64,000 nt of DNA from a virus. Below the pieces are notes generated by a model. It searched no databases and was not told the DNA's origin. It saw nothing but the letters and a program-made list of their open reading frames with translations. The DNA lies in the IMG/VR virus record IMGVR_UViG_3300027749_000039, positions 32,001 through 96,000 of that record; one strand, written 5' to 3'. Position 1 is the first letter of the stretch; every line of letters starts with the position of its first letter. Positions 22,412 to 26,391 of the stretch are shown in pieces. The translations under genes and the position numbers were made by a program.

Positions 22412-22484
22412 GAGGGTATAGCTCAGTTGGAAGAGCATCTGACTCTAAATCAGAGAGTCGTGGGTTCGAGCCCCACTATCCTCT
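22412..22484 (+). tRNA. Amber suppressor tRNA, anticodon CUA (no encoded CCA)
   Basis: Cloverleaf: GAGGGTA/TATCCTC, GCTC/GAGC, TCTGA-CTCTAAA-TCAGA, GTGGG-TTCGAGC-CCCAC; anticodon at 22445-22447. Confidence 0.92.
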
Positions 22485-22491
22485 CTTAAAT

Positions 22492-22573
22492 GCGGTCTGA
22501 GTTTTAAATCTATCCTGGCGGAAGAGCATGGCACTAAACTATGTAACATTGGGTTCGAATCCTACAGATCGCG
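22492..22573 (+). tRNA. Non-canonical tRNA-like gene with CUA anticodon
   Basis: Acceptor GCGGTCT/AGATCGC, CATGG-CACTAAA-CTATG, T-loop TTCGAAT; D region about 10 nt too long, A at position 33, one T-stem mismatch. Confidence 0.7.
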
Positions 22574-22587
22574 CTAAAAATTAAAAT

Positions 22588-22812
22588 ATGATATCAATAA
22601 TATTATTAGCACTTACTATATGGTGTGGTTATAAGCTTGTTACAAGCGAGAATAAATTACTTTATTCAACATTAGTATTACTTATTGATGGCGCTTGGAT
22701 TGCATATAACTTATATACACATAGTTATATATATGCTGCATTTTGGGTAGTATTACTATTGTTTGATACAAGAACATACCAAAGATATAAAAATGAGCAA
22801 GAAGAAGATTAG
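22588..22812 (+). CDS. Small membrane protein
   Basis: Three hydrophobic segments; ends in TAG. Confidence 0.6.
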   Translation: MISIILLALTIWCGYKLVTSENKLLYSTLVLLIDGAWIAYNLYTHSYIYAAFWVVLLLFDTRTYQRYKNEQEED

Positions 22813-23104
22813 AGAAATTTTTAGAAATGATGTCTTAAAAAGAGATAAGAATAAATGCCGCATATGTGGTGATTCTAAATCTAATCTAGATGCTCACCAT
22901 ATTACTGATAGGCATGAAATGCCTAGTGGTGGCTATGTTAAAGAAAATGGTATAACCCTCTGTGATAAAGAGGGTGGATGTCATATGAAAGCAGAACAAT
23001 ATCATATAGGTAATAAAGTTGAAGAAGGATTTATGCCAGATGATTTATATAAATTAATTAATTCAAGCTACGAAATAGCTTATTACGAATCTTTAAATCT
23101 TTAA
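22793..23104 (+). CDS. HNH endonuclease-like protein
   Basis: CRICG...LDAHHI...NGITLC...CH. Confidence 0.75.
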   Translation: MSKKKIREIFRNDVLKRDKNKCRICGDSKSNLDAHHITDRHEMPSGGYVKENGITLCDKEGGCHMKAEQYHIGNKVEEGFMPDDLYKLINSSYEIAYYESLNL

Positions 23105-23105
23105 T

Positions 23106-23273
23106 ATGGAGTATTTAGAAAAAACTAGACAAGAATTTTATAAATTAATACAAAGGCAAAACTTTAAATGGGAATTAATTGATAATATGCTTCTTGAAGA
23201 AGACGAACCAGCTAAACCTCTTAAAATAAGAGAAAAGAAAATTAAGGCAAAAATTGAATTAACAACAAATTAA
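23106..23273 (+). CDS. Hypothetical protein (55 aa)
   Basis: ORF MEYLEKTRQEFYKLIQRQNFKW..., below the track length cutoff. Confidence 0.5.
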   Translation: MEYLEKTRQEFYKLIQRQNFKWELIDNMLLEEDEPAKPLKIREKKIKAKIELTTN

Positions 23274-23306
23274 AAAATAAATATATAAAAATAAAAACAA
23301 TTACTT

Positions 23307-23672
23307 ATGTTGTAGAACAAATTTAACGAAACAAAATTAGTGATAATATCTAGACAAGATATGTCATCAGGCTACCAAGTGGTCCAATCAGCACATGCTA
23401 TTGCGGATTTCGCAAGCGAACATCCCGAAACTTTTGAACAATGGAAAAAAGAATCTAATTCCATTATTTGCCTCTCAATCAAAGATGAGGAAACTTTATT
23501 AAAACTTCACGAAAAATTATCAAAGAAAACAGCAAGTTCATCATTTTATGAACCTGATGTTAATGCTTTTACGGCAATTTGTGTCTATGGCACACCTGAA
23601 ATCCGTAAAAGTCTTTCGCATTTGCCATTAGTTTTAAATAAAAAATCAAAAGATGGCGAAACGTGGTCGTGA
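23307..23672 (+). CDS. PTH2-fold (peptidyl-tRNA hydrolase 2/PTRHD1-like) protein with in-frame TAG at codon 3
   Basis: ATG TTG TAG AAC...AAA TTA GTG in frame; KLVIISRQD...VQSAHA...IICLS...FYEPD...TAI pattern. Confidence 0.75.
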
Positions 23673-23690
23673 TAAGTTAATATATACTTT

Positions 23691-24485
23691 ATGTATATAC
23701 GAAATTGTCCATCTTGTGGAAAAGAATTGACCTACACTACTAATTATAGTAAAAATAGGCAAGAAAAACTAAATAAATCTTGTAGAAGCTGTACTACCAA
23801 AAAGGAATATGTTATAAATCCGGATAAAAATAAAGGAGAAGAAAATGGTAGATTTGGAAAATCATTATTAGAAGTAATGAACAACAAATATGGTGAAAAA
23901 AAAGCAGAAATTAATTATAATAATTGGAAAAATAACAAAAATTCTTTTGGGATTAAAGAAAAAAATCCACAATATGGTATTTCCCCATTTAAGAATAATG
24001 GAATGTCATATAAGGGATGGTATAAAGGAATGTTTTTTAGAAGTAGTTTTGAATTGATGTTTATATTTGAAAATTATGATAAAAAAATAATTTCCGCAGA
24101 AACAAAAGAATATAGAGTTAGTTATAATTATTTAGGTAATGAAACACATTATTATCCGGATTTTTATAGCGAAACAAATAATACCATTTACGAAATAAAA
24201 TCTAAAAAATGGTTATTAGATAGTAAAAATCTTCTAAAAATAGAAGCAGGTAAGGAAGAATTTAAAAAAAGAGGAATTAAATATGAGGTATTATGTGAAT
24301 ATGATATGGATATATTTAAAAAATATAATTCTGATTGGCAGAAAATTATTTATGATTTTCTTTATGAATTAGTCATTTATAATGAAGTTAATTTAACAGA
24401 CTTGTCTTTTAAAAAATTAAAATTAAAATTGTTAAAAACAAAAAGGATTACAAAACTAAAAACAATAGAAAATACTATGAAGTAG
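23691..24485 (+). CDS. Free-standing homing endonuclease (TnsA-like PD-(D/E)xK, NUMOD3-like N-terminus)
   Basis: FRSSFE, YYPDF, YEIK motifs; own TAATATATA promoter; its stop is the TAG at codon 3 of the next gene. Confidence 0.7.
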   Translation: MYIRNCPSCGKELTYTTNYSKNRQEKLNKSCRSCTTKKEYVINPDKNKGEENGRFGKSLLEVMNNKYGEKKAEINYNNWKNNKNSFGIKEKNPQYGISPFKNNGMSYKGWYKGMFFRSSFELMFIFENYDKKIISAETKEYRVSYNYLGNETHYYPDFYSETNNTIYEIKSKKWLLDSKNLLKIEAGKEEFKKRGIKYEVLCEYDMDIFKKYNSDWQKIIYDFLYELVIYNEVNLTDLSFKKLKLKLLKTKRITKLKTIENTMK

Positions 24486-25055
24486 ATAACATTATCAGCA
24501 TTAAGAGAAGCGATGGAAAGTTGCGAACAAACAAAGGGGGTCTCTACCTTACAACATGGTCTATCCGTTAAAAATTATTTATTTGATTTACTAACTCATT
24601 TAAGAAATGAAACGCCATTAAAATATGAATGGTCATTACCAAAATGGGTAATTGAGAACAAAGAATTTTTATTAGATAATTTATCTGATGATAAAACGCT
24701 ATCATTATATACCGAGTATCATGATTGTGGAAAATGGTCATGTCTTGAAGTTGATGATGACGGCAAAAGACACTTTCCAAATCATGCTGAGAAATCCTAT
24801 GATATTTTTAAACAAACATTTAAAAACCAAATAGCAGCTATATTAGTTAAACATGATATGGATATACATACTTTAAAAGCAGATGGTGTTGAAAACTTCT
24901 GTAAAAATCCATTAGCAATAACATTGTTATTAACTGGACTTGCAGAGATACACTCAAATGCTAGTATATTTGGTGGTATTGATAGCACAAGTTTTAAGAT
25001 TAAATTAAAAAGTATAACACAAAGAGGAAAACAAATTTTAAATATTCTAAAATGA
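24477..25055 (+). CDS. HD-domain phosphohydrolase with in-frame TAG at codon 3
   Basis: ATG AAG TAG ATA ACA TTA... in frame with MESCEQT; LQHG, YHDCGK, HAEKS, HDMD motifs. Confidence 0.75.
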
Positions 25056-25354
25056 TAGAAGTAATACAAGATACTACATCAAAATATGGACCATGGTTAG
25101 CCGAATTTGGAACTTATGAATTAGTAGACGACGGTATACTAACCGCAGATGAATCACAAATACTAGATGATTCTTCTGGTGAATATGAAGTATTGAAATG
25201 TAAATTGAAAAACATTGATTTCACAAAACTTCAATATGGTAGCAAATTTTTGAAAGTCAAAAGAAGTAATGGTAATATTGAAACTTGGTCATATGGTGGT
25301 CAAAGTAGAATTATTCCAGAAGAAAATTTTAGTTTTTTTACAAGACCGATATGA
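25052..25354 (+). CDS. Hypothetical protein
   Basis: 100-aa ORF, ATGA overlap. Confidence 0.6.
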   Translation: MIEVIQDTTSKYGPWLAEFGTYELVDDGILTADESQILDDSSGEYEVLKCKLKNIDFTKLQYGSKFLKVKRSNGNIETWSYGGQSRIIPEENFSFFTRPI

Positions 25355-26391
25355 ATATAAAAGAAACATTTTTAAAACTAACTAGTAGAACTTATCCATA
25401 TGGTAATGAGCATCGTTTACGATCCTCATTGCCTAAAGATACTAAACGTGATAAACACGGTAATTTCTACTATAAAATAGGTTCATCAAGAACTATTTTT
25501 GCCTGTCATCTAGACACTGTTTCAAAAAAATATGAAGAAGTTGCTCATGTTTTTGACGGCAACATCATTAGAACAGACGGTAAAACAATACTAGGTGCTG
25601 ATGATAAAGCTGGTATGTGTGTGTTATTATATATGATTGACCAAAAAGTTCCTGGAACATATTTCTTCTTTGTGGGAGAAGAAGTTGGTTGTATTGGCAG
25701 TAAAGCAGCAGCATCAAAAGATAAGGATTTCTTTTTTGAATATGATAAGATAATATCTTTTGATAGGAAAGATACTTGTTCTATTATAACCCACCAAAGT
25801 TGGGAAAGATGCTGTTCAAATGATTTTGCAAAAGCTTTATCAAAAGAATATACCGATTTAGGTTTAGAACTAATACCTGATGATACAGGTGTTGGAACTG
25901 ATTCCGCCCAATTTACCGATATAATTCCTGAATGTACAAATATATCAGTAGGATATTATAAGGAGCATACACATGAAGAGCATCAAGATATAGATTTCTT
26001 GGAAAGACTTTGTATGGCTTCCGCTATTATTGACTGGGAAAGTTTACCGACTGCAAGAGATCCAAAAATAAAAGAATACAAAGAATATGATTATGATAAT
26101 CATTATTCAAAATGGATTAATAAGGAGCGTGAACGTGAAAAAGTATGTAAATGGAATTATGCCGATAATAGAAGAAAAGATAGAGTTGATTTAAGAAAAA
26201 CATACGGCTATAATGAAGATTTACCTATTGATGAAGAACTAAGAAGTAGATTGAATGATGCATCTTTATATGGAACTACGGATAGAAAAGATATATTTTT
26301 CGTATTCAGAGAATCTATGTTAGATAGAGGATTTTCAGCAGCAGAATATGGTATAATCGAGGAACAATATATTGATAACTATTTAGTTTAA
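25351..26391 (+). CDS. M20/M28-family zinc peptidase
   Basis: CHLDTV, LGADDKAG, EEVGCIGS, SFDR, EH motifs. Confidence 0.85.
   Translation: MNIKETFLKLTSRTYPYGNEHRLRSSLPKDTKRDKHGNFYYKIGSSRTIFACHLDTVSKKYEEVAHVFDGNIIRTDGKTILGADDKAGMCVLLYMIDQKVPGTYFFFVGEEVGCIGSKAAASKDKDFFFEYDKIISFDRKDTCSIITHQSWERCCSNDFAKALSKEYTDLGLELIPDDTGVGTDSAQFTDIIPECTNISVGYYKEHTHEEHQDIDFLERLCMASAIIDWESLPTARDPKIKEYKEYDYDNHYSKWINKEREREKVCKWNYADNRRKDRVDLRKTYGYNEDLPIDEELRSRLNDASLYGTTDRKDIFFVFRESMLDRGFSAAEYGIIEEQYIDNYLV

What the first reader, a model, noticed from the sequence alone, without database searches (positions are those of the whole stretch)
22412..25055. Candidate amber-gated module: two CUA tRNAs plus two genes that each begin ATG-NNN-TAG
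Seen: both tRNA genes in the window have CUA anticodons. About 0.7 kb downstream, a PTH2-fold gene (ATG TTG TAG, 23307) and an HD-domain gene (ATG AAG TAG, 24477) each have an in-frame amber at exactly codon 3. The window otherwise uses the standard code; by manual reading only four credible genes end in TAG (22812, 24485, 33147, 34510). Known: some phages encode suppressor tRNAs and use stop recoding to time gene expression, and RF2 autoregulates through an early in-frame stop. Inference: a dedicated circuit rather than genome-wide recoding. The two proteins are made only when the suppressor is charged and outcompetes host RF1, and both folds act on tRNA or nucleotides, so they may feed back on the suppressor (deacylation, end repair, or charging with an unusual residue). 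The tRNAs follow a host-type promoter and the gated genes a late-type one. I know of no description of this arrangement.
Basis: partly seen in the sequence, partly recalled or inferred. Interest (0 to 1): 0.92.

Follow-up and report, generated by a model that had tools for sequence, protein, structure and literature searches.

The report
Stop-codon lock on phage tRNA-enzyme genes
A 190-kb phage that otherwise uses the normal genetic code has a UAG stop as the third codon of two tRNA-enzyme genes and encodes its own UAG-reading tRNA beside them; about a hundred other large phages share this layout, so the enzymes are probably made only when that tRNA overrides the stop.

Summary
One canonical tRNA(CUA) lies at 22412-22485. 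The second "CUA tRNA" (22491-22575) is not called by ARAGORN at default settings or by Rfam, and its fold is ambiguous.

The PTH2-like gene starts ATG TTG TAG (23307). The HD gene starts ATG AAG TAG (24477). The HD gene's TAG is also the stop of an inserted TnsA-like endonuclease ORF.

The genome is not TAG-recoded: 9 of 185 long ORFs end in TAG, and no other gene needs read-through.

An early in-frame stop is conserved in both gene families:
- It occurs in 89 of 109 dereplicated IMG/VR genes, against 9 of 733 other ORFs in the same loci.
- It occurs in cultured phages (pT24, XacN1, RsoM2USA, ME3, Arash, RAS14).
- There is usually no start codon between the stop and the conserved domain.
- All 12 phage records I examined with an amber gate carry a tRNA(CUA), three of them only a non-canonical one; it often lies within 0.5-3 kb.
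- Two lineages gated by TGA carry tRNA(UCA) instead.
- Ungated homologues in bacterial isolates have no nearby suppressor.

The two proteins are fused in either order in some phages.

Best reading: a suppressor-dependent translational gate on a pair of enzymes that act on tRNA 3' ends. I found no paper describing it. Earlier follow-ups in this scan reached the same reading on at least eight other genomes.

The parts
22412..22485 (+). Canonical amber-suppressor tRNA, anticodon CUA, loop CUCUAAA, discriminator U73. It is the only CUA tRNA in the 190.6-kb genome.
   Evidence: ARAGORN; Rfam RF00005 69.1 bits, E 3.8e-14.
The acceptor stem and T loop are intact. The anticodon is ambiguous: CUA with A33, or GGC if the CUA hairpin is read as a variable arm.
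   Evidence: Not called by ARAGORN at default or ps95, nor by Rfam at E<=10. Fold z = -1.6. Called at ps80 as an 83-nt 'tRNA-Ala(ggc)'.
22763..23104 (+). HNH-endonuclease-like ORF. Together with the tRNA block it is an insertion relative to the close relative L208.
   Evidence: Pfam HNH 20.4 bits, just under the 21.4 cut-off. Absent from the syntenic L208.
23307..23315 (+). Gate of the PTH2-like gene: ATG TTG TAG, followed by AAC.
   Evidence: Sequence. The equivalent ATG-(N)0-4-TAG is present in 46 of 54 dereplicated IMG/VR homologues and in every GenBank relative inspected among non-Lak phages.
23307..23672 (+). PTH2-like (archaeal-type peptidyl-tRNA hydrolase fold) gene. It has 121 codons with UAG at codon 3. 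There is no ATG, GTG or TTG between the TAG and GTG 23340, which lies inside the conserved first strand (NETKLVIISRQD).
   Evidence: Pfam PF01981 33.4 bits. Family profile A3 against Pth2 structure 2zv3: E 7e-10. N-terminal conservation.
23691..24485 (+). TnsA-like/PD-(D/E)xK endonuclease ORF (264 aa) inserted between the PTH2-like and HD genes. Its last three codons are the HD gate, and it stops on the gate's TAG.
   Evidence: Pfam PF08722 24.4 bits (below the 26.5 cut-off); PHROG 15427 'endonuclease' E 1.5e-10. Absent in L208, where the same leader sequence is intergenic.
24477..24485 (+). Gate of the HD gene: ATG AAG TAG, followed by ATA.
   Evidence: Sequence. The relative L208, which lacks the endonuclease, has the identical leader ATG AAG TAG ATA ACA TTA. 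43 of 55 dereplicated IMG/VR homologues have an early TAG.
24477..25055 (+). HD-superfamily gene with 192 codons and UAG at codon 3. The fold is closest to the C-terminal half of a class II tRNA nucleotidyltransferase.
   Evidence: Invariant H24, H79-D80, H100, D124, H128 (A2). AlphaFold2 pLDDT 97.3, with the post-TAG residues 3-12 forming helix 1. Foldseek best hits 3wfr/3wfo, TM 0.62. PHROG 14850 E 3e-60.

Best explanation
This is a suppressor-tRNA-dependent translational gate on a two-enzyme unit.

Ribosomes start at ATG 23307 (PTH2-like gene) and ATG 24477 (HD gene) and meet UAG at codon 3. With host RF1 alone they release a dipeptide and no enzyme is made. When the phage's own tRNA(CUA) at 22412-22485 is transcribed, matured and charged, it competes with RF1, inserts a residue and the full proteins are made. 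Output of both enzymes therefore follows the ratio of charged suppressor to RF1. This acts as a timer or sensor tied to the phage's own tRNA system.

The two gated proteins work together; they are fused in either order in other phages. Both most likely act on tRNA 3' ends. One has the peptidyl/aminoacyl-tRNA ester hydrolase fold. The other is an HD phosphohydrolase resembling the tRNA-binding half of CCA-adding enzymes.

Shown by computation: the gate, its conservation, its specificity to these two families, the tRNA linkage, and the covariation between gate codon and anticodon.

Inferred: that read-through really occurs, which residue is inserted, what the enzymes' substrates are, and why gating is useful.
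For: 1. Conservation of the gate.
- PTH2-like genes of LR745206, pT24, LR756500/01/02/04, two IMG/VR relatives, ME3 and Arash all start ATG-(N)0-2-TAG.
- HD genes, or HD-first fusions, of LR745206, RsoM2USA, XacN1, RAS14 and Xoo-sp13 do the same.
- In 80 IMG/VR loci, dereplicated, 43 of 55 HD genes and 46 of 54 PTH2-like genes have an early TAG. Of these 89, 75 have an ATG 1-5 codons before the TAG. Only 3 of the 89 have a canonical start between the TAG and the domain.
- Background: 9 of 733 other ORFs in the same loci show the pattern.

2. The post-stop stretch is protein.
- NETKL and (I)TFxxLxxxM are conserved. They align with residues that are unambiguously translated in pT24 and fHe-Yen9-03.
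- In the AlphaFold2 model, residues 3-12 form helix 1 at pLDDT about 96.

3. Ribosome-binding sites point at the upstream ATG: AAGGAG-N5-7-ATG-NNN-TAG in six MAG contigs.

4. Linkage to a suppressor tRNA.
- tRNA(CUA) is found in every amber-gated phage record I examined. Canonical: RsoM2USA, XacN1 (two), pT24, fHe-Yen9-03, ME3, RAS14, Xoo-sp13, Arash, CBB, LR756501 (two). Non-canonical: LR745206, LR756502, LR756504.
- 33 of 80 IMG/VR loci have one within 4 kb on the same strand. In 6 of them it is the only tRNA.

5. Covariation.
- Two loci gated by ATG-N-TGA lie on contigs with tRNA(UCA) and no detected tRNA(CUA).
- Lak-B7 has ATG AAT ATC TAA beside tRNA(UUA).
- Among 18 full-length homologues in genome assemblies, 10 of 11 gated loci have tRNA(CUA) within 4 kb, against 0 of 7 ungated ones.

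6. Specificity in this genome: standard code, and only these two genes need read-through.

7. Context of the gate codon: the base after the TAG is A in 73%, G in 20%, C in 7% and T in 0% of 89 cases. From my own knowledge of E. coli work, a purine there favours suppression and U favours RF1.

8. Functional coupling: PTH2-HD fusion in pT24 and HD-PTH2 fusion in XacN1, RAS14 and Xoo-sp13. 70 of 80 loci have both genes within 4 kb.
Against: - There is no experimental evidence of read-through, of protein N-termini or of expression.
- 57% of gates are followed by an Ile codon (ATT, ATC or ATA), which is a near-cognate start. Re-initiation right after a mini-ORF is therefore not excluded for those cases.
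- In mycobacteriophages IkeLoa and Myrna the TAG is followed directly by GTG with better Shine-Dalgarno spacing, so there the gene may simply start at the GTG.
- In this window both genes have a canonical start 8-11 codons after the TAG (GTG 23340, ATG 24513) that could give a truncated protein.
- The closest relatives (L082, L208) have no tRNA within 5-6 kb, and I could not search their whole genomes.
- The counts are not phylogenetically independent.
- The PTH2-like family lacks the Gly-Lys lysine of Pth2 and has Glu where Pth2 has the catalytic Asp, so its chemistry may differ.
Confidence: 0.78

Rival explanations
1. Mini-ORF (or 'start-stop') with termination-reinitiation. ATG-N-TAG is a 1-5 codon leader ORF. 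Ribosomes terminate at the UAG and restart on the next codon or a nearby one (AUU, AUA, AUC, GUG). The suppressor tRNA plays no part. The leader could also act as a drop-off-prone minigene that senses Pth activity.
For: 57% of gates are followed by ATT, ATC or ATA, and a few by ATG or GTG. Five cases are bare ATG-TAG. In IkeLoa and Myrna, GTG follows the TAG with good Shine-Dalgarno spacing. The product has a peptidyl-tRNA-hydrolase fold, which fits minigene biology.
Against: About 30% of gates are followed by codons that cannot initiate (GTT, GTA, AAC, CTT and others). This includes the window's own PTH2 gate (TAG AAC), where the next possible start would delete conserved residues. This model does not explain the linkage to tRNA(CUA), the switch to TGA where the tRNA is UCA, or the lack of the leader stop where no suppressor is nearby. 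Rak2-like phages keep the TAG in the middle of the HD gene, where re-initiation would give half a protein.
Confidence: 0.1
2. The UAG encodes a particular, functionally required residue near the N-terminus, either a specific standard amino acid or an unusual one. The tRNA would then be a dedicated decoder rather than a regulator.
For: The position is very constant (codons 2-6), and the next residue is mostly Ile, Val or Leu. The window's tRNA has no obvious identity set: it has U73, and its body is nearest to phage tRNA-Gly or tRNA-Asn genes.
Against: The suppressor tRNA bodies are very diverse and resemble different tRNA classes. The gate can be TGA or TAA with the matching tRNA. Ungated homologues have different residues there: Gln in the Sphingomonas homologue, Asn in the Bosea one. 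In the model the residue lies before helix 1, away from the HD motif. I did not look for Pyl-type or other special synthetases.
Confidence: 0.05
3. Incidental TAGs: early stages of, or remnants of, general TAG-to-sense recoding (code 15). These two genes would merely be tolerant of it, or the pattern would be chance, pseudogenes or assembly error.
For: Some relatives (LR756501, several IMG/VR loci, Lak phages) have further in-frame TAGs. Some gene callers applied code 15 to related contigs.
Against: In this genome no other gene needs read-through. The XacN1 authors found nothing by reading through all 18 amber stops of annotated genes (PMC5852040). Enrichment is 82% against 1.2% background. 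The same position recurs in two unrelated protein families and in phages of Bacteroidota, Proteobacteria and other hosts.
Confidence: 0.03

Closest known systems
Stop-codon-recoded phages with phage-encoded suppressor tRNAs (TAG read as Gln, 'code 15'; crAss-like, Lak and others). Proposed to delay late and lysis genes (Borges et al., bioRxiv 10.1101/2021.08.26.457843, read).
   Same: A phage-encoded suppressor tRNA overrides a host stop codon. In-frame stops keep chosen genes silent until the suppressor works. The genomes are low in GC, and TAG is rare as a true stop.
   Different: Here the genome keeps the standard code and only two genes are affected. The stop sits at codons 2-6 rather than being scattered through the genes. 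The targets are tRNA-acting enzymes, not structural or lysis genes. The same two families are gated in distant phage lineages, with suppressors of apparently independent origin.
RF2 (prfB) autoregulation through an early in-frame UGA (my own knowledge, not tested here).
   Same: An early in-frame stop makes the yield of a translation factor depend on competition at that stop codon. The gated product belongs to the translation apparatus.
   Different: prfB needs a +1 frameshift and senses its own product, RF2. Here the frame is unchanged, the competitor is a tRNA, and feedback of the products on the signal is unproven.
'Orphan' suppressor tRNAs of tRNA-rich jumbo phages, for example XacN1 (PMC5852040).
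   Same: The same genomes and the same tRNA(CUA) genes.
   Different: That paper read through the amber stops at the ends of annotated genes and found no targets. The targets proposed here are at the starts of ORF364-type genes, upstream of the annotated start codons.
Archaeal/eukaryotic peptidyl-tRNA hydrolase Pth2 (PF01981; structure 2zv3).
   Same: Same fold over the full length (E 7e-10). The Q..HA motif and the T of the C-terminal motif are conserved.
   Different: The Gly-Lys lysine is not conserved, and Glu replaces the catalytic Asp. It forms a phage-specific subfamily (PHROG 1866/14850) that is always paired or fused with the HD protein.
C-terminal body/HD region of class II tRNA nucleotidyltransferases (structures 3wfo-3wfs).
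   Same: Best structural match (TM 0.62, probability 1.0) and best sequence-profile match (E 0.002). HD-type metal-binding residues are present.
   Different: There is no nucleotidyltransferase head domain. It is a stand-alone protein of about 190 aa. The similarity is modest (18-20% identity, E about 5e-3).

Membership tests
tRNA (Rfam RF00005), amber suppressor | Cloverleaf scoring above the gathering threshold, with CUA at positions 34-36, U33 and a purine at 37 | tested here: met
   22412-22485: 69.1 bits against 29; loop CUCUAAA.
tRNA (second element, 22491-22575) | Cloverleaf recognised by ARAGORN or Infernal; U33; a normal D arm | tested here: not met
   No call at default or ps95, and no Rfam hit at E<=10. 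A33 in the CUA fold. An alternative GGC fold appears at ps80.
Pth2 peptidyl-tRNA hydrolase (PF01981) | Pfam score above the gathering cut-off and full-length similarity to solved Pth2 structures | tested here: met
   33.4 bits against 23. Profile A3 against 2zv3: E 7e-10, residues 2-114 of 115.
Pth2 peptidyl-tRNA hydrolase (PF01981) | Catalytic residues (Lys of the GK motif, Asp of the DAG motif; from my own knowledge of Pth2) | tested here: inconclusive
   Q24, H27 and T86 are invariant. Invariant E79 aligns with the Asp. The Lys position is Tyr or variable.
HD phosphohydrolase superfamily (PF01966) | The H...HD...D metal-binding motif and a Pfam match | tested here: inconclusive
   The window protein has no Pfam hit at E<=0.1. 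Three of 6 relatives hit HD at a best E of 4.7e-4. H24, H79-D80, H100, D124 and H128 are invariant in 43 sequences. Structural matches to HD enzymes are weak (TM 0.26-0.48).
Code-15 (TAG-recoded) phage | In-frame TAG in many genes, especially late genes; loss of coding density under code 11 | tested here: not met
   The genome is densely coding under code 11. Only the PTH2-like and HD genes need read-through. TAG ends 9 of 185 long ORFs.
Autoregulatory recoding of the prfB type | The gated product acts on its own recoding signal | not testable with these tools
   Whether the PTH2-like and HD proteins act on the suppressor tRNA needs biochemistry.
TnsA-like endonuclease (PF08722), the inserted ORF 23691-24485 | Pfam score above the gathering cut-off | tested here: not met
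   24.4 bits against 26.5. PHROG 15427 'endonuclease' E 1.5e-10. I call it endonuclease-like only.
Pyrrolysine-type dedicated decoding | pylS/pylBCD genes and tRNA-Pyl architecture | not tested
   ARAGORN's 'tRNA-Pyl' label only reflects the CUA anticodon. The tRNA has an ordinary cloverleaf. I did not search for pyl genes.

The most novel reading that the evidence does not exclude
The suppressor tRNA has no decoding job other than this gate. The three parts (tRNA, PTH2-like enzyme, HD enzyme) would form a closed translational homeostat or checkpoint. The enzymes act on tRNA 3' ends, including the suppressor's, by deacylation or end repair or removal. Their synthesis would then report, and feed back on, the charged state of the phage's tRNA pool relative to host RF1. 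This would be a natural 'orthogonal tRNA switch' that evolved repeatedly from different tRNAs and with different stop codons.
Probability: 0.3. Interest if true: 0.9.

Novelty: new variant of a known kind. Interest (0 to 1): 0.8.

Why it matters
Many tRNA-rich jumbo phages that use the standard code carry suppressor tRNAs with no known purpose. The XacN1 authors looked for targets and found none (PMC5852040). This result gives those tRNAs a conserved, specific target pair.

The question becomes directly testable in cultured phages of laboratory hosts, for example by deleting the tRNA, mutating TAG to a sense codon, or fusing the leader to a reporter.

It also matters for annotation. These genes are routinely mis-started, split into two CDSs or truncated. 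Examples are pT24 BPT24_235, Arash gp84c, and CBB_407/408. Some pipelines switch whole contigs to code 15 because of them.

If the gate works as proposed, it is a natural gene-specific stop-codon switch. It has arisen with amber and opal stops, and possibly with ochre.

Tried and rejected
- Genome-wide recoding: rejected. The only other TAG-joined long ORF pair (G000 185257-190602, minus strand) is two adjacent genes with an ATG two codons after the TAG.
- Within-genome enrichment of ATG-N-TAG before long ORFs: weak (5 of 166 against 4 of 393). The three extra cases look like chance frames.
- Second CUA tRNA: no tool support. An alignment with the odd CUA tRNA-like genes of LR745206 and LR756502/04 showed no convincing homology.
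- Identity of the suppressor: global alignment to the phage's own tRNAs was uninformative (<75%, confounded by length). The nearest matches elsewhere are phage tRNA-Gly genes (about 78-81%) and a tRNA-Asn of LR745206 (86% over 58 nt). Left open.
- Single-protein searches of IMG/VR found only 2 and 0 loci. Alignment-based searches were needed.
- Complex prediction of HD with PTH2-like: no verdict (score 0.00). This is not evidence either way.
- Pfam and PDB sequence searches for the HD protein gave only weak hits.
- Four literature searches found no description of the gate.
Full report
**What is in the window**

The window is bases 32001-96000 of a single 190,602-bp virus record with 27.9% G+C. 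It is densely coding under the standard code.

ARAGORN finds one tRNA in the window, at 22412-22485 (+), with anticodon CUA. Rfam's tRNA model scores it 69.1 bits against a gathering score of 29. The genome has 45 or more further tRNAs, all far outside the window. This is its only CUA tRNA.

- It is not called by ARAGORN at default or ps95, nor by Rfam at E<=10.
- In the fold that puts CUA in the anticodon position it has A33, an overlong D region and a mismatched T-stem pair. Its folding energy is unremarkable (z = -1.6).
- At a relaxed threshold ARAGORN folds it differently, as an 83-nt 8/4 'tRNA-Ala(ggc)' with the CUA hairpin as the variable arm.
- I treat it as a tRNA-like element of unknown status.

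**The two genes**

The PTH2-like gene reads ATG TTG TAG AAC AAA TTT AAC GAA ACA AAA TTA GTG from 23307. It passes Pfam PTH2 (33.4 bits, cut-off 23).

The HD gene reads ATG AAG TAG ATA ACA TTA TCA GCA TTA AGA GAA GCG ATG from 24477. Its TAG is also the stop of the 264-aa endonuclease-like ORF 23691-24485, which lies in the same frame. On its own, that would make the HD case trivial.

TAG is a rare stop. It ends 9 of 185 long ORFs in the genome and 3 of 70 in the window, plus the 74-aa ORF that ends at 22812.

Only two places in the genome join long open pieces through a TAG. One is the endonuclease/HD junction. The other is a pair of ordinary neighbouring genes with an ATG two codons after the TAG. 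The genome is therefore not recoded.

Within this genome the pattern ATG-N-TAG followed by a long ORF is only weakly enriched.

**Comparative evidence decides the matter**

Homologues of the PTH2-like gene all have ATG, then 0-2 codons, then TAG immediately before the conserved N-terminus. This holds for the huge uncultured phages LR745206 and LR756500/01/02/04, for Tenacibaculum phage pT24, and for two IMG/VR relatives. In LR745206 there is no ATG, GTG or TTG for another 36 codons. Acinetobacter phage ME3 and Salmonella phage Arash do the same.

HD genes of LR745206 and Ralstonia phage RsoM2USA start ATG-(N)1-2-TAG. So do the HD-first fusions of Xanthomonas phages XacN1 and Xoo-sp13 and Stenotrophomonas phage RAS14. 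In LR745206 the leader is free-standing, not the tail of another ORF.

Where the HD gene directly follows a gated PTH2-like gene with overlapping stop and start (ME3, Arash), or is fused behind it (pT24), it has no TAG of its own. Where the two are separated by an inserted gene (this window, LR745206), each has its own gate.

Rak2-like phages (CBB, fHe-Yen9-03) keep an in-frame TAG in the middle of the HD gene. They are annotated there as two CDSs.

**A wider survey**

An alignment-based scan of IMG/VR gave 80 loci.
- 70 of them have both genes within 4 kb on one strand, either adjacent, split by a 0.7-1.6 kb insert, or fused in either order.
- After dereplication, 43 of 55 HD genes and 46 of 54 PTH2-like genes have an early in-frame TAG.
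- The distance from ATG to TAG is 0-4 codons (5, 34, 21, 11 and 4 cases respectively).
- Only 3 of the 89 gated genes have a canonical start between the TAG and the domain.
- In the same loci, 9 of 733 other ORFs show such a leader, and TAG is not preferred over TAA or TGA there.
- The base after the TAG is A in 73%, G in 20%, C in 7% and never T. The next codon is Ile in 57% and Val, Leu or Asn in most of the rest.

**Is the stretch after the stop translated?**

The peptides NETKL (PTH2-like) and (I)TFxxLxxxM (HD) are conserved. The HD stretch aligns with residues that are unambiguously translated in pT24 and fHe-Yen9-03.

An AlphaFold2 model of the HD protein, starting right after the TAG, has pLDDT 97.3. 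Residues 3-12, which lie upstream of ATG 24513, form the first helix.

In six MAG contigs a strong AAGGAG sits 5-7 nt before the ATG that precedes the TAG.

Initiation upstream of the stop, followed by read-through, is therefore the simplest reading.

**Link to the suppressor tRNA**

Canonical tRNA(CUA) genes are present in RsoM2USA, XacN1 (two in tandem), pT24 (2.5 kb upstream, unannotated), fHe-Yen9-03, ME3 (0.45 kb upstream), RAS14, Xoo-sp13, Arash (0.46 kb downstream, annotated as tRNA-Phe), CBB and LR756501 (two in tandem).

LR745206, LR756502 and LR756504 have non-canonical tRNA-like genes with CUA in the loop.

In IMG/VR, 33 of 80 loci have a tRNA(CUA) within 4 kb on the same strand. 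In six of them it is the only tRNA.

The suppressor bodies are very diverse, which suggests several independent origins.

**Covariation**

Two IMG/VR loci have HD genes starting ATG TCA TGA and ATG TTG TGA. Their contigs carry tRNA(UCA), in one and two copies, and no detectable tRNA(CUA).

Lak-B7 has ATG AAT ATC TAA next to a tRNA(UUA).

Among 18 full-length HD homologues in genome assemblies, 11 are gated and 10 of those have tRNA(CUA) within 4 kb. Seven are ungated, and none of them does. The ungated set includes Sphingomonas, Pseudomonas (one on a chromosomal contig, two on megaplasmids), Bosea and Psychromonas isolates.

These counts are not phylogenetically independent. They come from phages of very different hosts, however, and from two unrelated protein families.

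**What the proteins are**

The PTH2-like family profile matches the archaeal Pth2 structure 2zv3 over its full length (E 7e-10). Q24, H27, E79 and T86 are invariant. E79 aligns with Pth2's catalytic Asp, and the Gly-Lys lysine is not kept.

The HD protein keeps H24, H79-D80, H100, D124 and H128 in 43 sequences. Its best sequence-profile and structural matches are both to the C-terminal half of a class II tRNA nucleotidyltransferase (3wfo-3wfs; E 0.002; TM 0.62).

PHROGs lists the fused family (14850) as of unknown function.

Fusion in both orders shows that the two act together. Both resemblances point to the tRNA 3' end as the substrate, but that is inference.

**Local history**

A close relative (L208, HD protein 81% identical) has the same gene order. 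It lacks the tRNA+HNH block and the endonuclease-like ORF. Its HD leader, ATG AAG TAG ATA ACA TTA, is intergenic there.

So the gate predates the insertion. The inserted ORF simply runs into the gate and stops on it. With suppression, an endonuclease-HD fusion would be a by-product. The proximity of the tRNA to the gated genes in this window is a derived state.

**Rivals**

- A mini-ORF with re-initiation is not excluded where an Ile codon or GTG follows the stop. This applies to IkeLoa and Myrna, where Shine-Dalgarno spacing favours the GTG. It does not explain the non-initiator codons after about 30% of gates, the mid-gene TAG of Rak2-like phages, or any of the tRNA linkage and covariation.
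- A special residue at the UAG is unlikely, given the diverse suppressors, the interchangeable stop codons, and the different residues in ungated homologues.
- General recoding is excluded for this genome.

**Prior knowledge**

The XacN1 paper states that no targets of its two suppressor tRNAs could be found by reading through annotated amber stops (PMC5852040). The survey of recoded phages by Borges et al. does not mention hydrolases or such gates. Four full-text searches found no description.

Within this scan, follow-up agents reported the same module on at least eight other genomes. I saw those notes only after my own analysis, and they are not independent evidence.

**Verdict**

The mechanism has three steps: initiation at the upstream ATG, competition between tRNA(CUA) and RF1 at codon 3, and production of a PTH2-like/HD enzyme pair only when the suppressor works. 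I give it about 0.78. The purpose (timer, sensor or feedback on tRNA 3' ends) remains open.

Noticed in passing
G000:C1:129434-172865 (outside the window): The phage has 45-48 further tRNA genes, often as duplicate pairs. Several non-type-II tRNAs have long variable arms: Asp at 171262-171351 (90 nt), Gln at 172625-172711 (87 nt) and Met at 162373-162458 (86 nt). One tRNA has an 8-nt anticodon loop 'ctga' (133744-133833).
   Followed up: no
L070 (LR745206 507250-507530), L071 reverse complement (LR756502), L072 reverse complement (LR756504): Non-canonical tRNA-like genes with CUA in a (T/A)TTCTAAC loop. The LR745206 and LR756502 elements also have an 8-bp acceptor stem and a 5-6 bp D hairpin. 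ARAGORN calls them only at a relaxed threshold, or as a 4-base anticodon 'tcta'. They may be the suppressors of these huge phages.
   Followed up: partly
window 23691-24485 and 22412-23104; L208 4440-5060: The endonuclease-like ORF and the tRNA+HNH block are insertions relative to a close relative. The last ~35 nt of the endonuclease-like ORF are the native HD leader. Suppression would therefore also yield an endonuclease-HD fusion.
   Followed up: partly
L007 1462-2028 (Yersinia phage fHe-Yen9-03), L088 1462-2028 (Pectobacterium phage CBB): The HD gene has a normal ATG start but a conserved in-frame GGA TAG GGC in mid-gene. It is annotated as two CDSs (g411/g412; CBB_407/408). A tRNA(CUA) lies 2.5-3.1 kb downstream.
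   Followed up: partly
L087 2464-2535 (Salmonella phage Arash), L105 1654-1725 (Mycobacterium phage Myrna): tRNAs annotated as tRNA-Phe and tRNA-Ser are called with anticodon CUA by ARAGORN. Both lie next to the PTH2-like gene.
   Followed up: no
L001 1413-2777 (LR745206): A 454-aa ORF lies directly upstream of the gated PTH2-like gene. By eye its sequence looks like a class II aminoacyl-tRNA synthetase (Asp/Asn/Lys type), but I ran no family search on it. It could be the enzyme that charges the suppressor.
   Followed up: no
L013 1494-3068 (XacN1 terminal repeat): Two tandem tRNA(CUA) genes are followed within 1 kb by a phage tmRNA gene (tag ANANTFDYALAA). Ribosome rescue encoded next to suppressors may be relevant to read-through of natural stops.
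   Followed up: no
L217-L220, L227, L230 (Sphingomonas, Pseudomonas chromosome and ~1-Mb megaplasmids, Bosea, Psychromonas): Full-length HD homologues occur in bacterial isolates and megaplasmids, without an early stop and without a nearby suppressor tRNA. The Sphingomonas gene has CAG where phages have TAG.
   Followed up: partly
L107 (Lak-B7), L109 (LR745208): PTH2-like genes lie next to tRNA(UUA) ochre-type suppressors. Lak-B7 has ATG AAT ATC TAA ATA before the gene. LR745208 has a plain GTG start.
   Followed up: partly
window 25351-26391: An M28/M20-like metallopeptidase gene (346 aa) lies directly downstream of the module. It is conserved in the same position in the relative L208.
   Followed up: no
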